From a virus (lineage: Duplodnaviria > Heunggongvirae > Uroviricota > Caudoviricetes): a stretch of 37,482 nt of DNA. Position numbers and translations under genes: made by a program. The stretch's first letter is position 1. Every line of letters starts with the position of its first letter. The DNA lies in the IMG/VR virus record IMGVR_UViG_2565956717_000009, positions 1-37,482 of that record. The stretch is one strand, 5' to 3'. Positions 9,147 through 22,609 of this stretch are shown one piece after another. The notes under the pieces were generated by a model. It saw nothing but the letters and a program-made list of their open reading frames with translations. It was not told where the DNA came from and made no database searches.

Positions 9147-9847
9147 CAGTCAATCAGCCCATGTAATCTAAGTGCCGTTTCAAGCGCCAGAATACGCTGC
9201 CGCGCCTGCTGCAAACCTGTAGCGAGGGCTGCGACTTCGGATTGTGTGTACGTAGTGCCGACTGTGTATGACTGGTTAGCGTTGAATGAGCCAAGAAGAG
9301 GTGTACCTGTGGCTGCAGTCCATCCGGTATTTCTTGCTCCAACAACCTGAATTCCATCAACTGAATATGATGTTTTTACATCCAGCGGTGACTCAAGAGA
9401 CTGCAATTCGGTTACGGTTTTCGATACGTAATCACTCTTAATGCCAGAGACATCGTTTTCTACCTCATCCAGTCTTTGGTCAACAGTGACCAGATGCGCC
9501 TGAATATCGATAACCTCATCCAGCAAGTAATCAACATCGCTACGCAGTACGACTATCTTCCCTTCGGCAGTTGTTAACCTGACCTCAAGTAGATTTATCG
9601 CTTTTGTGTTTGCGGTGATTCTTGCGTCGTGATCAGCCAGTTCGACATCCTGTTCATCGTTTTTTACCTGGGCATCGTAAGCGCCCTGACCAGCCTGATT
9701 TGCCTTCCCGGCAATTGCGCCGACATCAGCCCCCTGATTAATGACATACAGCAGGTAAGACTGGCTGAATATATTGCGTGGAAGGATTGATGTATCGAGT
9801 CGTGTAGCCTGGATGATTACCGGCACATTGAGATTCGAATCAGCCAT
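9146..9847 (-). CDS. Tail needle protein, P22 gp26-like
   Basis: [25 protein letters not shown]... and C-terminus ...[45 protein letters not shown] match recalled gp26; start at internal ATG 9847 with GGAGG 7 nt upstream. Confidence 0.85.
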
Positions 9848-10385
9848 TAACATGCCTCCACGATTTACCAGACTGGATATTGTGAATCACCGTCTGACTG
9901 ACACAGTATTTTTTAGCAAGCTCTCTTTGATTAACTCCCTTTGATTTCTTTATTTCTATTACTTGCTCATATGATAGCTTTGAAATTGGATTATTTTCTC
10001 CTTTTAAAGCCGGAAACTTCACCCTGCCTTGAGATGAGCAATGCTTCATATTCTCCTTTTGAGTACACCACTCTAAATTAGAAGCATTATTATTTTTTCG
10101 GTTGTTATCTATGTGATTTATGAACGGCTTGCCTTCTGGATTGGGGACGAAAGCAAGAGCGACAAGCCTATGCACAAGCCATTTTACTTTAACTCCATCA
10201 ACACTAAGTGGCAAATATAGATAACCTTTATTATTCTCGTGTTGTTTTAGCCACCGCCCCTTTCTGAGTTGCGTGCTGCCATGCGCAGCTTTAACAACAC
10301 GTGAGTGAGAATATACTCGCCCATCCTCTGTTACGGCATATAAACCTTCATATCCAGGAATATCTTTTGCGTTTTCACTCAACAT
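9840..10385 (-). CDS. HNH homing endonuclease (NUMOD4-like N-motif + HNH + C-terminal HTH)
   Basis: [18 protein letters not shown] (NUMOD4-like), [12 protein letters not shown]...[24 protein letters not shown] (HNH), C-terminal [22 protein letters not shown]; strong AAGGAG RBS; A+T-rich. Confidence 0.85.
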
Positions 10386-16962: not shown

Positions 16963-18378
16963 TCAACCTACACCACAAGGAATTGAGTAACTGGAATAGT
17001 CGGGTTGCGCAGCCGACTCCGGGCAATGCATACACATCATCAGCGCATCAGCCAGGTTAGGAGATGGAATACCGAGCTTCTGCTTCATTTCGACCTTAGT
17101 CATAAGCTCCAGCTTCCCGTTATTATTGAATTTGCGCTGAATCTGCGTCAGTTCTGCAAACAGCTTCTCCAGCATCTTCTCGCCTATCGCTTCTTTGTCG
17201 AAACTCAGCATGTCGTCGGGGTCTGCATACTCACCGTGGACAACCGCCCGATATGTCAGATACAGCCTGTCAGCCAGCGCGTAATAGAATTGCGCTCGCT
17301 TATTGCGGAATACATCGCCAATAGTGCGAACGTTGTCGCCCTGCACGACTTCATCAGCCCATGCTCCGGCCTGATATGGTGCATCTTCATCAAATGGCGA
17401 TTCGCTGCCCTTGAACATCGTAGCGGTGATTTTCTTACCGGAGAATGCTTCCGTTGTCTGTCTGCGTAGCCCTGCACCAACGCCATCGCCATCCCACAAG
17501 TAGTGGTCAGCGCCGTCTTCAATCGCCAGCGAAGTTGCCCAGTCAGCACCTTCATTGATGTCCATCAGCAGACCTTCGGCAATGCGCTTAACTACCGAAC
17601 CGTGGCGCGATGCATAACCTTTAGCATCCGGTCCTGTATCTGACGGGTCATGCGCAGAGACAACAGCGCCTTTCGCTTTCCATCCGAGTTTCTTGTGCGC
17701 ATCGGTTGCGGCTTCAAGCCATTCACGTTTGATGATTGCCATATCACTTGCGCTTACTGGCTCACCAAGCCAGATGTGACGATACAGTGTCGGATTTCTG
17801 CGTTTGCACTCTTCCATCTCCAGACGGAGAACTTCAGGAAAGTGCGGGTTGTCGGTGTAGTTCACCGTCAGCAGGCAAATATCATCGGGAGGATTTACGA
17901 CGAATCGCTGATAGGTATCGTCGAGGATGTTCTTCGGGTTAAAGCTCACCCATATTTCAGAGAACGGCTTACGGATGGTTGGGATCAGGATATCCCATGA
18001 TTCCTTCGTTACCGCTTCCGCTTCTTCCACCCAGCAGATATCAATGCCTTCGAGCGATTTAATCTTCGTCGGGTTGTTTTTTATGCCGTAGAACATGAAT
18101 TCAGCATTCGTTCCGAGATGACGAATCATTGAACGCTGAATTTCAAACTCAGCCGAATATCCTTCACGCTCGATGGTGTCTTCAAGCAGCCGGATTACCG
18201 AATCGCTGATACTGTTTTGCAGTTCACGAGCGCAGAGAATACGCACAGGCTGCCGACGCGCCGCTTCAACAAGCAGTCTCGCAATTGCCCATGATTTACC
18301 GCTACCTCGACCGCCTTTGGCGACTTTGTAGCGATGCGCCTCAATGAACGGTTCAAAGATAGGATTAATCGAGGTCAT
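16963..18378 (-). CDS. Terminase large subunit
   Basis: 471 aa; N-terminal P-loop KGGRGSGKS; overlaps TerS stop. Confidence 0.9.
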   Translation of the reverse strand: MTSINPIFEPFIEAHRYKVAKGGRGSGKSWAIARLLVEAARRQPVRILCARELQNSISDSVIRLLEDTIEREGYSAEFEIQRSMIRHLGTNAEFMFYGIKNNPTKIKSLEGIDICWVEEAEAVTKESWDILIPTIRKPFSEIWVSFNPKNILDDTYQRFVVNPPDDICLLTVNYTDNPHFPEVLRLEMEECKRRNPTLYRHIWLGEPVSASDMAIIKREWLEAATDAHKKLGWKAKGAVVSAHDPSDTGPDAKGYASRHGSVVKRIAEGLLMDINEGADWATSLAIEDGADHYLWDGDGVGAGLRRQTTEAFSGKKITATMFKGSESPFDEDAPYQAGAWADEVVQGDNVRTIGDVFRNKRAQFYYALADRLYLTYRAVVHGEYADPDDMLSFDKEAIGEKMLEKLFAELTQIQRKFNNNGKLELMTKVEMKQKLGIPSPNLADALMMCMHCPESAAQPDYSSYSIPCGVG

Positions 18379-18902
18379 TTTCCGAATAGAGTGCTCATCG
18401 GTGATGTTTCAATCTGGATTGCGCCGCCGTCTTTGCCTGTTAGTTCGTGAGAAGCTTGTTCTTTAAACGCCTGAACAGAAACATGCTTACCAAGAAGTTC
18501 GAGGTTTTTAACCTTATCAGGCCATTTGATTTTCTTCAGGAGTGCGGCGCTATCTGCGGATGCCATCTCCACGACATCCATTCCTGATAACGTTGTGCGC
18601 CATACCTTAGGCCAGTCTTTAATGGGTTTTAGCTCACCGTTTTGCAGGAGAATGTCAAGCACATCCATCTGGTCGATTTCAATAAGGCGATTAAGTACAT
18701 ATTCTGCATTAATACCAACAAGATCATTGCGTTGTGCTTTCAGTTCGGCGATTCTGAGTTGTATGTCAGGTTTTGACATGTTTTCGGACGCAGTACGGTT
18801 GGCTGTTTTTGCGCTGTACCCCGCCCGAATAGCCGCTTGCGTGGCGTTTAAATCGATGAGGTACTCGCGACAGAACATTTCTTGCTTGTCGGTGAGTGCC
18901 AT
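18375..18902 (-). CDS. Terminase small subunit
   Basis: 175 aa; LTDKQEMFCREYLIDLNATQAAIRAGYS typical of phage TerS. Confidence 0.85.
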   Translation of the reverse strand: MALTDKQEMFCREYLIDLNATQAAIRAGYSAKTANRTASENMSKPDIQLRIAELKAQRNDLVGINAEYVLNRLIEIDQMDVLDILLQNGELKPIKDWPKVWRTTLSGMDVVEMASADSAALLKKIKWPDKVKNLELLGKHVSVQAFKEQASHELTGKDGGAIQIETSPMSTLFGK

Positions 18903-18926
18903 TTAATTACCTTTGGGAGATGCCCA

Positions 18927-19460
18927 ATGAGTTTAGAAAAATTACTAATCAAAAACAGAAAGTGCGGTTCATGCTCTGTGTGCTGCACTTCGCTACGAAT
19001 TGAACAGCCAACGTTAAAAAAGTTGGCTGACATCCCATGCCAGCACCTTAAACATCAGGGAGGATGTGCAATTTATGATGAACGCCCTTCTGTTTGCCGC
19101 ACTTGGTATTGCGGATGGCGAATTCTGGATATAGGACCAGAGATGCGTCCTGATCGGAGTGGAGTTCTAATCCGTTATGATGGATCATCACTCTGCTTTC
19201 AACCCGTAGACAAAAACCGCGTATCTGCTTTGATCGAACCAGAGCCTCTGCGAATTTTGGGTGGCCTGATAGATCAAGGTATGAAAGTGGAAATATCGGT
19301 TCCAACAAAGGAAGGGTATTGCTCAGCCAATATTAATGTCACTGAGCATATGTCAGAGGTTGTAAAAAGCAGAGAGTATGTAAAAATGCGTTCGGCTCTT
19401 TTGGCGCTCATTCAATTCGCATCACGAGCAAAGACAGATCCAGTAGAACCGCTGGAATGA
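18927..19460 (+). CDS. YkgJ/UPF0153-family Cys-cluster protein (CxxCxxCC putative Zn/Fe-chelating domain)
   Basis: 177 aa from ATG 18927 with GGGAGA RBS at 6-nt spacing; KCGSCSVCC ... IPCQHL ... GGCAIYDERPSVCRTWYC matches the recalled PF03692 signature; opposite strand to the late operon. Confidence 0.7.
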   Translation: MSLEKLLIKNRKCGSCSVCCTSLRIEQPTLKKLADIPCQHLKHQGGCAIYDERPSVCRTWYCGWRILDIGPEMRPDRSGVLIRYDGSSLCFQPVDKNRVSALIEPEPLRILGGLIDQGMKVEISVPTKEGYCSANINVTEHMSEVVKSREYVKMRSALLALIQFASRAKTDPVEPLE

Positions 19461-19470
19461 TTATTCAGGT

Positions 19471-19492
19471 CGGGTTTAACACCCGGCTTTTT
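19471..19492 (+). terminator. Rho-independent terminator after the YkgJ-like gene
   Basis: cgggt-ttaac-acccg followed by gcttttt, 11 nt after the stop codon. Confidence 0.55.
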
Positions 19493-19735
19493 GAAATGGT
19501 ACTCATTGCATCGCTTAATTTTCTTTAAATGAGAAACGTCCTCTTTCTTAACTGAAGACATTAATTCTTTATCAGTTCGAACATTCATTTTTTTCCATTG
19601 CATGATCTTCGCTAATTTATAATTTGCAGTTCTCCTGCAACGATTTGTTATGTGATAGGATATCTCTCTTCGTTTGGCGGTCCATTACTTCAATATCGTG
19701 ATCATTAAGGTATAGGCTTTGTAATGCCTACATGG

Positions 19736-20215
19736 TTAAATGATTTGCCAGTCTTCAGCCATCAGGTCGCCAATGGATGGAGCCCATGTAGCAAGGCGGT
19801 TCTGTGAGTTTTTCAATACAAGCGTGTCATTGAAAGTTGGCTCGCCAACATATTCGCCAAAGCCATAACCCAACGCAGACGCTAATTTTTCTCCTTTCAC
19901 GAGATAAACAAACTGATCTTTCCCATTCCATCCTGCCCGCTGCAAACTTTTGCCCTGTTTTAACGCTTCCATGGCAAGGCCGAAACTTAGCCCTGATACC
20001 GGACGATAAGCCTTTTCGAATACTTCTTTTGGACTCCAGCTAACGTAGCCATCAAAGCGATCGGTGTTAGGTTTTCCGCCATCCAGATATTCAACCAGAT
20101 AGCCTTCGTCCTCGCCGTTTTCTCCGGCAGGAAGCTGCCAGCCACGAAAATCGTTATATGCCTGTCTCGTCATCGGAAAGGCGTTAATCAGTTTTACGCC
20201 AATATGCTGGGTCAT
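19736..20215 (-). CDS. DUF2829-like protein (Tad2-family candidate); in-frame upstream extension to 20338 possible
   Basis: C-terminal half contains AMEALKQGKSLQRAGWNGKDQFVYLV, matching the recalled DUF2829 signature; ATG at 20215 chosen over 20338 because the N-terminal 41 aa look non-protein-like. Confidence 0.5.
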   Translation of the reverse strand: MTQHIGVKLINAFPMTRQAYNDFRGWQLPAGENGEDEGYLVEYLDGGKPNTDRFDGYVSWSPKEVFEKAYRPVSGLSFGLAMEALKQGKSLQRAGWNGKDQFVYLVKGEKLASALGYGFGEYVGEPTFNDTLVLKNSQNRLATWAPSIGDLMAEDWQII

Positions 20216-20437
20216 AAAATTACCTATGGAGTTGGGAATAAAAAAACCCCGCGAATGCGAGGCTAAATCCTGGTGTTTGTGATGACTGGCTCTTATCTCA
20301 ACGCAGCCCCTTACCGCGCGCCAGATGCTCAATATCAAGCATCAGCAATGAGATGTTTAATCTGGATTCACTCCAGAAGTGATCACCACCCTGTCTACAG
20401 AGCCAGATGTGAAGGATGATGAGTAAAATTATCGTTA

Positions 20438-20875
20438 TCATCGAAGGCATTGCGCCCTGATGTACTCCTGCAGGTAGTTAACCTGCGCGGTTATTCTGTC
20501 GATTCCACTTCGTAGACGGTAATAATTGAGTTCAGCATCTGCTGTAAGTCTTGGGCTTTCTCCATCGCCCATGCTGCTGGCTCCGGTCGTTGACTTTGCA
20601 CAGGTGGCAGCGACTTGCAGGCGCTTACGACCAGCAGAAATATCAGCACGGAGACTTTCGATAGTCGCGTTAGCATCAGCAAGCTCCTTTGTATATCTGG
20701 CATCGAGTTCTGCTACATCACGTTGACGCTTCTGCATATCAGCGATTGTGGATGTGGCCTTATCGCGCTGCTCTTTGTAGGTAATGGCGTTATCACGGTA
20801 ATGATTAACAGCCCATGACAGACAGACGATGATGCAGATAACCAGAGCGGAGATAATCGCGGTTAACCTGCTCAT
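20438..20875 (-). CDS. Rz: Rz i-spanin
   Basis: [34 protein letters not shown] matches recalled lambda Rz; ATGA overlap with endolysin stop. Confidence 0.85.
20491..20676 (-). CDS. Rz1: Rz1 o-spanin lipoprotein, embedded in Rz in the +1 frame
   Basis: Signal peptide with lipobox (LVVSAC) followed by a Pro-rich segment, wholly inside Rz. Confidence 0.7.
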
Positions 20876-21985: not shown

Positions 21986-22609
21986 CTAACGTGTGACAGC
22001 ATTCAAAATGTTGTCTGCGATTGACTCTTCTTTGTGGCATTGCACCACCAGAGCGTCATACAGCGGCTTAACAGTGCGTGACCAGGTGGGTTGAGTAAGG
22101 TTTGGGATTAGCATCGTTACAGCGCGATATGCGGCGCTTGCTGGCATCCTTGAATAACCGACGCCTTTGCATCTTCCGCACTCTTTCTCAACAACTCTCC
22201 CCCACTGCTCCGTTTTGGCTATATCAACCGCACGGCCTGTACCGTGGCAATCTCTGCATCTTGCGCCCGGCGTCGCGGCACTACGGCAATAATCCGCATA
22301 AGCGAATGTTGCGAGCACTTGCAGTACCTTTGTCTTAGTATTTCCTTCAAGCTTTGCCACACCACGGTATTTCCCCGATACCTTGTGTGCAAATTGCATC
22401 AGATAGTTGATAGCCTTTTGTTTGTCGTTCTGGCTGAGTTCATGTTTACCACAGAATGCAGCCATTCCGAATCCGGCTTGTGATTGCGCCATCCCCATAG
22501 CAGCCATCACATCAGTACCGGAAAGAGAGTCAGAAGCCGTAGCCCGTGGTGAGTCGCTCATCATCGGGCTTTTTGGCGAATGAAATTTAGCTACACTTTC
22601 GAGTCTCAT
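21986..22609 (-). CDS. Q: Late antiterminator Q (lambda-type)
   Basis: 207 aa; MRLESVAKFHSPKSPMMSDSPRATASDSLSGTD... matches recalled lambda Q. Confidence 0.9.
   Translation of the reverse strand: MRLESVAKFHSPKSPMMSDSPRATASDSLSGTDVMAAMGMAQSQAGFGMAAFCGKHELSQNDKQKAINYLMQFAHKVSGKYRGVAKLEGNTKTKVLQVLATFAYADYCRSAATPGARCRDCHGTGRAVDIAKTEQWGRVVEKECGRCKGVGYSRMPASAAYRAVTMLIPNLTQPTWSRTVKPLYDALVVQCHKEESIADNILNAVTR

What the first reader, a model, noticed from the sequence alone, without database searches (positions are those of the whole stretch)
18903..19492. YkgJ-family CxxCxxCC gene encoded antisense to the late operon, between terS and the lysis module
A 177-aa protein with the UPF0153 cysteine cluster is encoded on the opposite strand from all surrounding late genes, with its own RBS and a downstream terminator; its start is only 24 bp from the divergent terS start. 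The late transcript must read about 830 nt antisense through it. This looks like a moron, and the arrangement implies reciprocal antisense regulation (expressed in the lysogen, silenced during late transcription).
Basis: partly seen in the sequence, partly recalled or inferred. Interest (0 to 1): 0.6.

Follow-up and report, generated by a model that had tools for sequence, protein, structure and literature searches.

The report
Antisense accessory gene in prophage late operon
A real, conserved gene for an eight-cysteine metal-binding protein of unknown function sits backwards inside the late operon of a P22-like E. coli prophage; it is a mobile accessory ("moron") cassette placed like lambda's bor gene, which is an ordinary arrangement, but this copy has lost the promoter-like block its relatives carry.

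Summary
The gene runs ATG 18927 to stop 19460 on the + strand and encodes 177 aa. It has a GGGAG ribosome-binding site, lies 24 bp from the divergent terS start, and is followed by an intrinsic terminator at 19469-19492. About 830 nt must be read antisense by the late transcript.

The gene is under purifying selection (dN/dS 0.13). All eight cysteines are conserved, and the AlphaFold model is confident (pLDDT 93.6). Its Pfam match to CxxCxxCC/YkgJ is below threshold, and no solved structure or defence-system model matches it.

Comparison shows a mobile, low-GC cassette. In at least 10 different lambdoid prophage backbones of Enterobacterales it always lies between the lysis and packaging genes, antisense to the late operon. 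Lambda's bor occupies the same position and orientation. So "moron" is supported.

The expression claim is weaker. Close relatives share a roughly 85-nt upstream block with promoter-like hexamers and a 5' hairpin. In this window terS replaces that block, leaving only a weak promoter-like site inside terS. Reciprocal antisense regulation is inferred, not shown.

Two new points emerged. A conserved 58-aa convergent ORF (19412-19588) travels with the gene, and a spanin-gene fossil (19617-19727) marks where the cassette came from.

Verdict: a new member of a known kind, of moderate interest.

The parts
18927..19460 (+). ykgJ-like gene: 177-aa protein with eight cysteines (C13, C16, C19, C20, C38, C47, C57, C62)
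   Evidence: ORF and sequence. Start fixed by the homologue alignment A1. PF03692 E=5e-4, 21.1 bits, below the cut-off of 23. dN/dS 0.13. AF2 pLDDT 93.6. RefSeq WP_001525208.1.
18915..18919 (+). Shine-Dalgarno sequence GGGAG, 7 nt before the ATG. It lies back to back with the terS ribosome-binding site (AAGGT on the - strand, about 18910-18914).
   Evidence: Sequence. GGAG(A/G)T is kept in all close relatives.
19469..19492 (+). Intrinsic terminator of the ykgJ-like gene: a 7-bp G+C-rich stem, 5-nt loop and U5. It acts in one direction only, because the - strand has no U-tract after the hairpin.
   Evidence: Folding, about -13 kcal/mol for the 46-nt stretch, z=-2.3. The hairpin recurs with compensatory changes in L002, L031, L038, L039 and L006.
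18914..19727 (.). Extent of the imported cassette. The left edge is where homology to Citrobacter and lambda-like copies begins. The right edge is the end of the spanin fossil.
   Evidence: blastn: window 18914/18917-19677 is 91% identical to L002 and L004. P22-like backbone homology resumes at about 19712 (H1). GC 0.42 against 0.51 in flanking structural genes.
19412..19588 (-). Conserved 58-aa ORF (MNVRTDKELM...) on the late-operon strand, convergent with the ykgJ-like gene. Its last 49 nt overlap that gene's 3' end, and it contains the terminator hairpin.
   Evidence: The motif [ST]DxxLM plus LxKxK..FxF is kept with different codons in 22 of 28 viral loci, 0 of 53 chromosomal loci and 1.2% of random windows. 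It is called as a hypothetical protein in databases. It lies next to the 177-aa gene in 6 of 6 contexts. dN/dS is about 0.55. AF2 pLDDT 62. The start at 19588 rather than 19603 follows from an indel in the A-run in L022 and L004.
19617..19727 (-). Fossil of the last 36 codons of an o-spanin gene, provisionally LysC-type (the Pfam LysC match of the intact L018 copy is weak, E=0.071). It has no start codon or lipobox here.
   Evidence: Translation ...LYLNDHDIEVMDRQTKRDILSHNKSLQENCKL* matches the intact lipoprotein ORF of L018 (6729-6977) and shorter fossils in L002 and L004. Weak LysC Pfam hit for the intact copy.
18773..18799 (+). Best sigma-70-like candidate promoter upstream of the gene, inside the terS coding sequence: TTGACA, 15 nt, TACGGT. 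Weak and untested.
   Evidence: Own weight-matrix scan: top 0.009% of window positions, about 0.15 expected by chance in the 330 nt scanned. Not reported by the consensus scan.
18375..18902 (-). terS (small terminase subunit), the first packaging gene of the late operon, divergent from the ykgJ-like gene
   Evidence: PF03592 E=3e-39. Annotation.
19736..20215 (-). DUF2829/Tad2-like late-strand gene, the last backbone gene before the cassette
   Evidence: PF11195 E=2e-21. phrog_872. Annotation.

Best explanation
The region is a horizontally mobile accessory cassette (a moron). It was inserted at the junction between the lysis and packaging genes of a P22-like E. coli prophage, in the orientation opposite to the Q-dependent late operon. 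Lambda's bor has the same position and orientation.

The cassette encodes a 177-aa cytoplasmic protein with two predicted four-cysteine metal sites (Fe-S or Zn). The protein belongs to a distinct, uncharacterised subfamily at the edge of the CxxCxxCC/YkgJ superfamily.

In its native form the cassette is a self-contained transcription unit: promoter-like block, 5' hairpin, Shine-Dalgarno sequence, ORF and intrinsic terminator. It would therefore be expressed independently of the late operon, most plausibly in the lysogen. Late RNA polymerase must read through it in antisense during lytic growth.

In this window, the recombination that joined the cassette to terS removed the promoter-like block. 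Expression here depends on a cryptic promoter inside terS, or is low.

Shown: gene reality, conservation, mobility, orientation, terminator, and loss of the upstream block. Inferred: lysogen expression, antisense occlusion by late transcription, and metal binding. Guess (about 20%): the protein is a group-transfer or redox enzyme acting on a host or incoming-phage macromolecule. The only two characterised relatives of the superfamily, FliB and DpdM, are methyltransferases.
For: Real gene:
- Homologues found.
- Eight conserved cysteines plus W64, R74 and D76.
- dN/dS 0.13.
- AF2 pLDDT 93.6.

Mobile and accessory:
- Present in 5 of 5426 complete E. coli genomes.
- No DNA match in sequenced phages across the gene.
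- 91% DNA identity to copies in Citrobacter HK97-like and lambda Nu1-type prophages, confined to 18914-19677.
- GC 0.42 against 0.51.
- The spanin fossil shows import from another lysis cassette.

Position and orientation:
- All gene-called prophage contexts place it between lysis and terminase genes, antisense.
- By a crude ORF call, 32 of 36 IMG/VR loci have both flanks on the opposite strand.
- Chromosomal homologues show no such bias.

Transcription unit:
- Terminator with covariation.
- Conserved upstream block in relatives.
- In 7 of the 8 other contexts scanned, a promoter-like site among the top three candidates ends 42-76 nt before the ATG.

Analogy:
- Lambda bor lies immediately after Rz on the opposite strand.
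- lom and bor are expressed in lysogens, and antisense placement is described as typical of morons (PMC7067206).
- The same window has other + strand genes (an Arc/Mnt-family gene and neighbours) embedded among - strand late genes.

Superfamily function:
- FliB is a [4Fe-4S] methyltransferase (PMC8598068).
- DpdM is a YkgJ-like dPreQ1 methyltransferase (bioRxiv 10.1101/2023.04.13.536721).
Against: - There are no expression data of any kind.
- This copy lacks the promoter-like block of its relatives, and the only candidate promoter is weak.
- The promoter-like block in relatives is itself a poor match to consensus (TTCCAA / TATTGT; score in the top 0.17% only).
- Pfam membership is sub-threshold.
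- Similarity to E. coli YkgJ itself is limited to 16 columns (hhalign probability 46%).
- Neither FliB nor DUF3109/DpdM models match.
- There is no structural neighbour in the PDB, no PADLOC hit and no conserved chromosomal neighbour. The biochemical role therefore rests on loose analogy.
- A conserved convergent small ORF suggests the unit may be more than a single-gene moron.
Confidence: 0.6

Rival explanations
1. The gene is actively expressed in this lysogen from a promoter inside the terS 5' coding region. It is switched off by convergent late transcription, which gives reciprocal antisense regulation.
For: - The ribosome-binding site and terminator are intact.
- There is a TTGACA hexamer with a TAnnnT -10 at 18773-18799.
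- The ORF is intact in all five complete E. coli genomes and in Shigella L022.
- Antisense RNAs and genes in P22-like late regions are documented (PMC7067206).
Against: - The candidate promoter has a 15-nt spacer and a poor -10. About 0.15 such hits are expected by chance in the region scanned, and the consensus scan found none.
- The upstream block conserved in relatives is missing here.
- Copies with this junction are nearly identical, so an intact ORF says nothing about selection.
Confidence: 0.3
2. A two-gene convergent module. The YkgJ-like protein is an effector made in the lysogen, for example for exclusion of other phages or modification of a host target. The 58-aa protein, made only from the late transcript, is its partner or antidote. 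The overlapping 3' ends couple the two.
For: - The small ORF is conserved at protein level with different codons in 22 of 28 viral loci, against 1.2% by chance and 0 of 53 chromosomal homologues.
- It accompanies the 177-aa gene in six different backbones.
- The 3' overlap of 47-65 nt recurs.
Against: - dN/dS of the small ORF is about 0.55, similar to out-of-frame controls.
- Part of the ORF is dictated by the terminator hairpin.
- The AF2 model has low confidence.
- There is no family match.
- One Kosakonia prophage keeps the small ORF without the big gene.
- There is no PADLOC hit.
- The motif was defined after seeing some of the loci.
Confidence: 0.12
3. In this prophage the gene is a silent passenger. 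It was cut off from its promoter by the recombination that created the terS junction, and it is on its way to decay.
For: - The conserved upstream block is lost.
- One contig has a frameshift in the A-run at 19016 (L025).
- Defective prophages retain only the 3' half (L023 and L024).
- The junction is recent.
Against: - The ORF and ribosome-binding site are intact in most copies.
- The junction keeps both ribosome-binding sites exactly abutting.
- The single frameshift could be an assembly error.
Confidence: 0.2
4. The functional product is an antisense RNA. It would act against the terS 5' end or the late transcript, as STnc6030 does in phage BTP1. The ORF would be incidental.
For: If transcription starts inside terS, the 5' end of the RNA is complementary to the terS start region. 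An antisense RNA with an exclusion function exists in a P22-like prophage (PMC7067206).
Against: - The protein is under strong purifying selection, with conserved cysteines.
- In native contexts the promoter-like block lies in intergenic DNA and the transcript does not overlap the upstream gene.
Confidence: 0.04
5. A spurious ORF on the antisense strand of late-operon DNA.
For: None beyond its position.
Against: Homologues reach down to 30% identity with conserved cysteines. dN/dS is 0.13. The fold prediction is confident.
Confidence: 0.01

Closest known systems
Lambda bor (and the neighbouring opposite-strand ORF lambdap78)
   Same: It lies directly downstream of the spanin genes, upstream of the packaging genes, on the strand opposite to the late operon. 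bor is expressed in the lysogen (PMC7067206). It is an accessory gene, not needed for lytic growth.
   Different: There is no sequence relationship. Bor is an outer-membrane lipoprotein, whereas this is a cytoplasmic cysteine-cluster protein. lambdap78 happens to be 177 aa too but is not homologous (hhalign probability 0.1%).
Morons in the sense of Juhala, Hendrix and colleagues (promoter + gene + terminator inserted between phage genes); for example STMMW_20121 of Salmonella prophage ST64B, antisense to lytic genes
   Same: Presence/absence polymorphism, distinct base composition, own terminator, and antisense placement described as typical of accessory loci.
   Different: This copy lacks an identifiable promoter. 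The family shows an unusually strict insertion position and orientation across many backbones.
E. coli YkgJ / Pfam PF03692 (CxxCxxCC, formerly UPF0153)
   Same: An N-terminal CxxCxxCC motif, four further cysteines, and a GCxIYxxRPxxCR segment.
   Different: The score is below the Pfam gathering cut-off. The protein is 177 aa against 109 aa, with an extra conserved YCGWR...RPDRSGV segment and a C-terminal alpha/beta domain. Only 16 columns align to YkgJ itself.
FliB (Salmonella flagellin lysine methyltransferase) and phage DpdM (dPreQ1 methyltransferase)
   Same: These are the only characterised enzymes with related cysteine motifs. FliB binds a [4Fe-4S] cluster. DpdM is predicted to have two four-cysteine sites split in the same way, three motif cysteines plus one distal and the fourth motif cysteine plus three others.
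   Different: The motif spacing differs (CX4CX3CC and CxxxCxxCC against CX2CX2CC here). There is no hit to NCBIfam or DUF3109 models. There are no 7-deazaguanine genes or flagellar genes nearby.
P22 immI-region genes (mnt and, from memory, sieA) embedded antisense in the late operon
   Same: Lysogen-expressed genes lie on the strand opposite to late genes in P22-like phages. This window has such + strand genes near the tailspike gene (Arc/Mnt family).
   Different: The location differs (between the ejection-protein and tailspike genes), and so do the proteins. That P22 sieA/mnt are expressed in the lysogen is from my own knowledge and was not tested here.

Membership tests
Pfam PF03692 CxxCxxCC / YkgJ family | N-terminal CxxCxxCC motif | tested here: met
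   C13-x2-C16-x2-C19-C20, at least 90% conserved in 44 homologues.
Pfam PF03692 CxxCxxCC / YkgJ family | Further conserved cysteines, giving eight in all | tested here: met
   C38, C47, C57 and C62 are invariant.
Pfam PF03692 CxxCxxCC / YkgJ family | Score at or above the curated gathering threshold of the family model | tested here: not met
   21.1 bits against a cut-off of 23, E=5e-4. 19 of 44 homologues match at E<0.01, with a best E of 2e-4.
Pfam PF03692 CxxCxxCC / YkgJ family | Detectable homology to E. coli YkgJ itself | tested here: inconclusive
   hhalign of A1 against YkgJ: 16 aligned columns, probability 46%.
Pfam PF03692 CxxCxxCC / YkgJ family | Binds zinc or iron | not testable with these tools
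   Needs purified protein (ICP-MS, UV-vis, EPR).
Moron (independently transcribed accessory gene in a prophage) | Present in some and absent from other closely related phages | tested here: met
   Present in 5 of 5426 complete E. coli genomes. Absent from Kapi1, CUS-3 and other P22-like phages.
Moron (independently transcribed accessory gene in a prophage) | Base composition differs from the flanking phage genes | tested here: met
   GC 0.42 for the cassette (GC3 0.37) against 0.51 for terL and portal.
Moron (independently transcribed accessory gene in a prophage) | Own terminator | tested here: met
   Hairpin plus U5 at 19469-19492, with covariation in relatives.
Moron (independently transcribed accessory gene in a prophage) | Own promoter | tested here: inconclusive
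   Relatives have a conserved promoter-like block. The window lacks it. Only a weak candidate exists at 18773-18799.
Moron (independently transcribed accessory gene in a prophage) | Expressed from the repressed prophage | not testable with these tools
   Needs RNA-seq or 5'-RACE of lysogens.
FliB flagellin lysine methyltransferase | CX4CX3CC motif and a match to the FliB family model | tested here: not met
   The motif here is CX2CX2CC. There is no NCBIfam hit at E<=0.1. The FliB motif is taken from PMC8598068.
DpdM / DUF3109 dPreQ1 methyltransferase | DUF3109 domain and linkage to dpdA/queuosine-precursor genes | tested here: not met
   Only PF03692 was found by Pfam. No such genes exist in the prophage.
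Known anti-phage defence systems (PADLOC-DB 2.0) | Match to any defence-protein model | tested here: not met
   No hit at E<=0.1.
Lambda Bor family | Sequence homology to Bor lipoprotein | tested here: not met
   The Pfam scan returns only PF03692. The resemblance is positional only.

The most novel reading that the evidence does not exclude
The unit may not be a single-gene moron. It may be a previously undescribed convergent two-gene prophage module. One part is an Fe-S/Zn YkgJ-like enzyme made in the lysogen. The other is a 58-aa protein encoded on the late strand, overlapping the enzyme gene's 3' end, and made only when the resident phage enters lytic growth. The small protein, or the RNA duplex, would neutralise the enzyme so that the resident phage escapes an activity that blocks superinfecting phages or modifies the host. 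The strict position and orientation at the lysis-packaging junction would then be part of the mechanism, timing by late transcription, rather than an accident of insertion.
Probability: 0.12. Interest if true: 0.7.

Novelty: new member of a known kind. Interest (0 to 1): 0.4.

Why it matters
Accessory genes at the lysis-packaging junction of lambdoid prophages, such as bor, are a classic source of lysogenic conversion and defence functions. This family is widespread in Enterobacterales prophages. One partner-ORF cluster alone is indexed in 267 blocks of the assembly collection. The family has no experimental characterisation and no solved structure.

It belongs to a cysteine-cluster superfamily whose only two studied members turned out to be unconventional metal-dependent methyltransferases. 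If the protein modifies a host or phage macromolecule, it would add a new activity to the prophage accessory repertoire.

For this particular window the practical message is more modest. The gene is real and mobile, but this copy has lost its native upstream block. It is therefore a poor choice for expression studies. The Citrobacter and Enterobacter copies are better models.

Tried and rejected
- **Sequence search of the PDB with the profile.** Nothing found.
- **PADLOC and NCBIfam.** No hits. PHROGs gave only phrog_9155, of unknown function.
- **Rfam over 18300-20600.** No RNA family found.
- **Gene neighbourhood of 53 chromosomal homologues** (Alphaproteobacteria, Burkholderiales). Orientation is mixed and neighbours are heterogeneous (PurD, a PP2C phosphatase, a portal protein and others). 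No functional hint came from this.
- **A late-strand terminator-like hairpin inside the gene (19044-19026).** It is not conserved in homologues, so I treat it as chance.
- **The alternative TTG start at 18882 (192 aa).** Rejected because all homologues start at M1 of the 177-aa form.
- **The 105-aa 'truncated' database entries (P0012 and similar).** The L022 copy is an internal-start call on an intact gene. L025 carries a 1-nt frameshift at 19016. L023 and L024 are deletion remnants in defective prophages.
- **L043 as a diverged copy of the terS junction, to measure selection after promoter loss.** It differs only by homopolymer indels and is uninformative.
- **Lambdap78, which has the same length and position in lambda.** It is not homologous.
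- **A pattern search of viral contigs with the small-ORF alignment.** It failed because no stretch was conserved enough.
- **Literature search** for YkgJ, PF03692, COG0727, UPF0153 and 'cysteine cluster protein' with prophage. Nothing was found on this family beyond FliB and DpdM.
Full report
**What the window is.** The window is a P22-like prophage of E. coli. It is 99.3-99.7% identical over most of its length to a prophage of strain SCU-124. The late genes lie on the - strand in this order: antiterminator (21986-22609), holin, lysozyme, Rz, a 50-aa ORF, a DUF2829/Tad2-like gene (19736-20215), terS (18375-18902), terL, portal, and so on. In P22-like phages all of these are read from one Q/gp23-dependent late promoter. 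That is established knowledge and was not tested here.

**Check of the observation.**
- The mechanical ORF list gives 18882-19460 from a TTG. All 43 aligned homologues begin at the methionine encoded by ATG 18927, so the product is 177 aa.
- GGGAG lies 7 nt upstream of the ATG. The terS start codon is at 18902 on the other strand, which leaves 24 bp between the two starts.
- The two ribosome-binding sites (AAGGT for terS, GGGAG for this gene) abut back to back.
- Eight nucleotides after the stop codon there is a G+C-rich hairpin followed by UUUUU (19469-19492). The 46-nt stretch around it folds at about -13 kcal/mol, z=-2.3. On the - strand the same hairpin has no U-tract, so it would terminate only + strand transcription.
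- The distance that late transcription must cover between the Tad2-like gene and terS is 833 nt.

**Is it a gene?** Yes.
- A single-sequence search found 57 relatives and a profile search at least 1445, nearly all 176-244 aa.
- C38, C47, C57 and C62 are invariant. C13, C16, C19 and C20 are at least 90% conserved. K32, G46, Y50, R53, W64, R74 and D76 are also invariant.
- Against the 91%-identical copies in L002 and L004, dN/dS is 0.13 (25 synonymous against 12 non-synonymous differences).
- AlphaFold2 with this alignment gives pLDDT 93.6 and pTM 0.88. The model has an N-terminal cysteine-rich part and a C-terminal alpha/beta domain.
- RefSeq already names it 'YkgJ family cysteine cluster protein'.

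**Family assignment.** The label is loose.
- The Pfam CxxCxxCC model scores 21.1 bits, below its cut-off of 23. Of 44 homologues, 19 match at E<0.01 and none match better than 2e-4.
- A profile comparison with E. coli YkgJ aligns only the GCxIYxxRPxxCR segment (probability 46%).
- NCBIfam and PADLOC give nothing. PHROGs gives one family of unknown function.
- I file it as a distinct subfamily at the edge of the CxxCxxCC superfamily.
- The only characterised proteins with related motifs are two methyltransferases. FliB is a [4Fe-4S]-dependent flagellin lysine methyltransferase with a CX4CX3CC motif (PMC8598068). The phage enzyme DpdM is a DUF3109/YkgJ-like dPreQ1 methyltransferase predicted to have two four-cysteine sites (bioRxiv 10.1101/2023.04.13.536721).
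- Eight conserved cysteines here fit two such sites. Neither family model matches this protein, and the prophage has no deazaguanine or flagellar genes nearby.

**Comparative context: a mobile cassette with a fixed position and orientation.**
- The gene is in only 5 of 5426 complete E. coli genomes, each time with the same junctions. Megablast found no phage match across it.
- Close copies occur in very different prophages. These include Citrobacter HK97-like phages with HNH/Terminase_4 (L002, L003, L005), a lambda-like phage with Nu1 (L004), Rahnella (L006), Providencia (L009), Enterobacter phages with a Hendrixvirinae-type terS (L013-L015), and others (L010, L018/L019, L160-L165).
- In every one it lies between the lysis cassette and the packaging genes, on the strand opposite to all neighbours.
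- Of 36 IMG/VR contigs with a full-length homologue, 32 have both flanks predominantly on the opposite strand by a crude longest-ORF call. Only one is clearly co-directional.
- Distant homologues (30-43% identity) in Alphaproteobacteria, Burkholderiales and Dyella are chromosomal. Their orientation is mixed and they have no conserved neighbour.
- DNA homology between the window and L002/L004 (91%) is confined to 18914/18917-19677.
- The cassette has GC 0.42 (GC3 0.37), against 0.51 for terL and portal.
- Lambda's bor occupies the same slot and orientation, directly after Rz on the opposite strand. bor is one of the few lambda genes expressed in lysogens, and antisense placement is described as typical of accessory loci (PMC7067206).
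- The window itself has other + strand genes (an Arc/Mnt-family gene and neighbours) embedded among - strand late genes near the tailspike.
- 'Moron' is therefore well supported, and the arrangement is of a known kind.

**Origin of the cassette.** On the late strand, 19617-19727 encodes ...LYLNDHDIEVMDRQTKRDILSHNKSLQENCKL*, with no start codon or lipobox. This matches the C-terminus of an intact lipoprotein ORF in L018 (MYSRLLTICLATMLIASC...QTKKDILAHNKALQANC...). I read that ORF as an o-spanin, provisionally of the LysC type, because its Pfam LysC match is weak (E=0.071). Shorter fossils of the same tail sit in L002 and L004. The cassette was therefore lifted from a position immediately downstream of such a spanin gene and carried a piece of it along. 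The P22-like backbone resumes at about 19712 (H1).

**The promoter problem.**
- L002, L004 and nine further non-identical IMG/VR copies of L029-L041 (75-95% protein identity) share a conserved block ending about 65-85 nt upstream of the ATG (TTTTTATCAGGATWCCAAAC). The L039-L041 copies (68% identity) carry a different upstream sequence with its own hairpin.
- After the shared block come a -10-like TATTGT or TATTTT, then a short hairpin whose sequence differs between cassette groups while pairing is kept, then GGAG.
- With my weight-matrix scan, 7 of the 8 other contexts have, among their top three candidates, a promoter-like site ending 42-76 nt before the ATG (L004 has none). None is strong.
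- In the window this block is absent. Homology starts 10-13 nt before the ATG, and terS coding sequence takes its place.
- The consensus scan finds no + strand promoter upstream. The best matrix hit is TTGACA-15 nt-TACGGT at 18773-18799. About 0.15 such hits are expected by chance in the region scanned.
- All copies with the terS junction are essentially identical: the five complete genomes, Shigella L022, L025-L028 and L043. Their intact ORFs therefore say nothing about selection since the junction arose. One copy has a frameshift in an A-run, and defective prophages keep only the 3' half.
The copy in this window may be weakly expressed or silent.

**A conserved partner ORF.**
- Gene callers repeatedly place a 56-67-aa ORF on the late strand, convergent with the gene and usually overlapping its 3' end by 8-65 nt. 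In the window this is 19412-19588, MNVRTDKELMSSVKKEDVSHLKKIKRC....
- The DNA is not alignable between cassette groups. The products nevertheless share [ST]DxxLM and, about 12 residues later, LxKxK-x5-FxF. Serine is encoded by AGC, AGT or TCA and leucine by TTA, CTG or CTT.
- An ORF with the first motif is present in 22 of 28 viral loci, in 0 of 53 chromosomal loci, and in 1.2% of random 410-nt windows of the same contigs. The motif was defined after inspecting some of these loci, and many loci are related, but at least nine distinct sequence groups carry it.
- Database clusters exist for it as hypothetical proteins. One of these (P0150) lies next to the 177-aa gene in six different backbones.
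- Evidence against a strong functional claim: dN/dS of window against L004 is about 0.55, no better than out-of-frame controls. Part of the ORF is fixed by the terminator hairpin. The AF2 model has low confidence, with two short helices and then disorder. There is no Pfam, PHROG or PDB match. One Kosakonia prophage keeps the small ORF without the large gene, apparently after a deletion.
- I report it as a real but unexplained companion. It is the basis of the most novel reading.

**How it most likely works.**
- Shown: a self-contained, mobile gene with a ribosome-binding site and terminator, oriented against the late operon at a recognised accessory-gene hotspot, encoding a conserved eight-cysteine protein.
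- Inferred: in native contexts it is transcribed from its own promoter in the repressed prophage. During lytic growth, Q-modified RNA polymerase ignores terminators and reads through it from the other side. That would occlude its promoter and create complementary RNA. The protein binds two metal centres.
- Guess: it is an enzyme, by analogy to FliB and DpdM perhaps a group-transfer enzyme, acting on a host or foreign macromolecule to the lysogen's benefit.
- I put 0.6 on the moron-cassette explanation as a whole and about 0.2 on the enzymatic guess.

**Comparison with what is known, and verdict.** The arrangement works like lambda bor and like other antisense morons, but the gene is not a member of the Bor family. 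The protein is a peripheral relative of YkgJ/CxxCxxCC, not a member by the curated threshold, and not a FliB or DpdM. A gene already annotated in RefSeq, sitting in a known type of locus, counts as a new member of a known kind. What lifts it slightly above routine is the strict positional and orientational conservation across many backbones, the unexplained small partner ORF, and the complete lack of functional data for a widespread prophage-borne metalloprotein family. Interest 0.4.

Noticed in passing
window 19412-19588 (-): A 58-aa ORF on the late strand, convergent with the ykgJ-like gene and overlapping its 3' end by 49 nt. The motifs [ST]DxxLM and LxKxK..FxF are conserved at protein level with different codons in 22 of 28 viral loci carrying the gene, in none of 53 chromosomal homologue loci, and in 1.2% of random windows. 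It matches no known family, and its AF2 model has low confidence.
   Followed up: partly
window 19617-19727 (-): Fossil of the last 36 codons of an o-spanin gene, provisionally LysC-type (weak Pfam match, E=0.071). The gene is intact in L018 6729-6977, and shorter fossils sit in L002 and L004. It marks the cassette's previous location next to another phage's lysis genes.
   Followed up: yes
window 19736-20215 (-): A DUF2829/Tad2-like gene (PF11195, E=2e-21) lies between the lysis genes and the cassette. Homologues in phages Huey and Louie are annotated 'anti-CRISPR protein'. It is a candidate anti-defence gene (Thoeris anti-defence 2-like domain).
   Followed up: no
window 18375-18902 (-): The terS is a rare type for P22-like phages. 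The best matches among sequenced phages are only 78-80% identical at protein level (Cronobacter ES2, Erwinia Midgardsormr38). Kapi1 and CUS-3, which share terL, carry a different terS. This is another mosaic joint right next to the cassette.
   Followed up: partly
window 20245-20264 (-): A good terminator-like hairpin (8 pairs, 5 G-C, T7) lies on the late strand between the 50-aa ORF after Rz and the Tad2-like gene. Presumably Q-modified polymerase reads through it.
   Followed up: no
L002 5920-6000, L004 2547-2628, L029-L038 (about 85 nt upstream of the gene): Relatives share a conserved upstream block (TTTTTATCAGGATWCCAAAC), a -10-like TATTGT or TATTTT, and a 5' UTR hairpin whose stem sequence differs between cassette groups while pairing is kept. 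In the L002 group, TTATCAGG upstream and CCTGATAA downstream form an inverted repeat around the putative promoter.
   Followed up: partly
L159 4001-4195 (Kosakonia sp. H7A prophage): The small partner ORF is present without the ykgJ-like gene. Its last 10 residues (HKEVAWWQHK) repeat the C-terminus of the upstream 486-aa protein. This suggests a deletion between duplicated junction sequences that removed the ykgJ-like gene.
   Followed up: partly
window about 9840-10385 (-) (L001 10961-11506): A NUMOD4-domain gene (homing-endonuclease-like) is inserted among the head and DNA-stabilisation genes of the late operon.
   Followed up: no
L166 2543-3076 (lambda 47042-47575, - strand): Lambda has a second opposite-strand ORF (lambdap78) between bor and cos. 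It is 177 aa, the same length as the protein studied here, but has no cysteines and is not homologous (hhalign probability 0.1%).
   Followed up: yes
window 19026-19044 (-): A terminator-like hairpin plus T6 lies on the late strand inside the ykgJ-like coding sequence, about 125 nt before terS. It is not conserved in homologues, so it is probably chance.
   Followed up: yes
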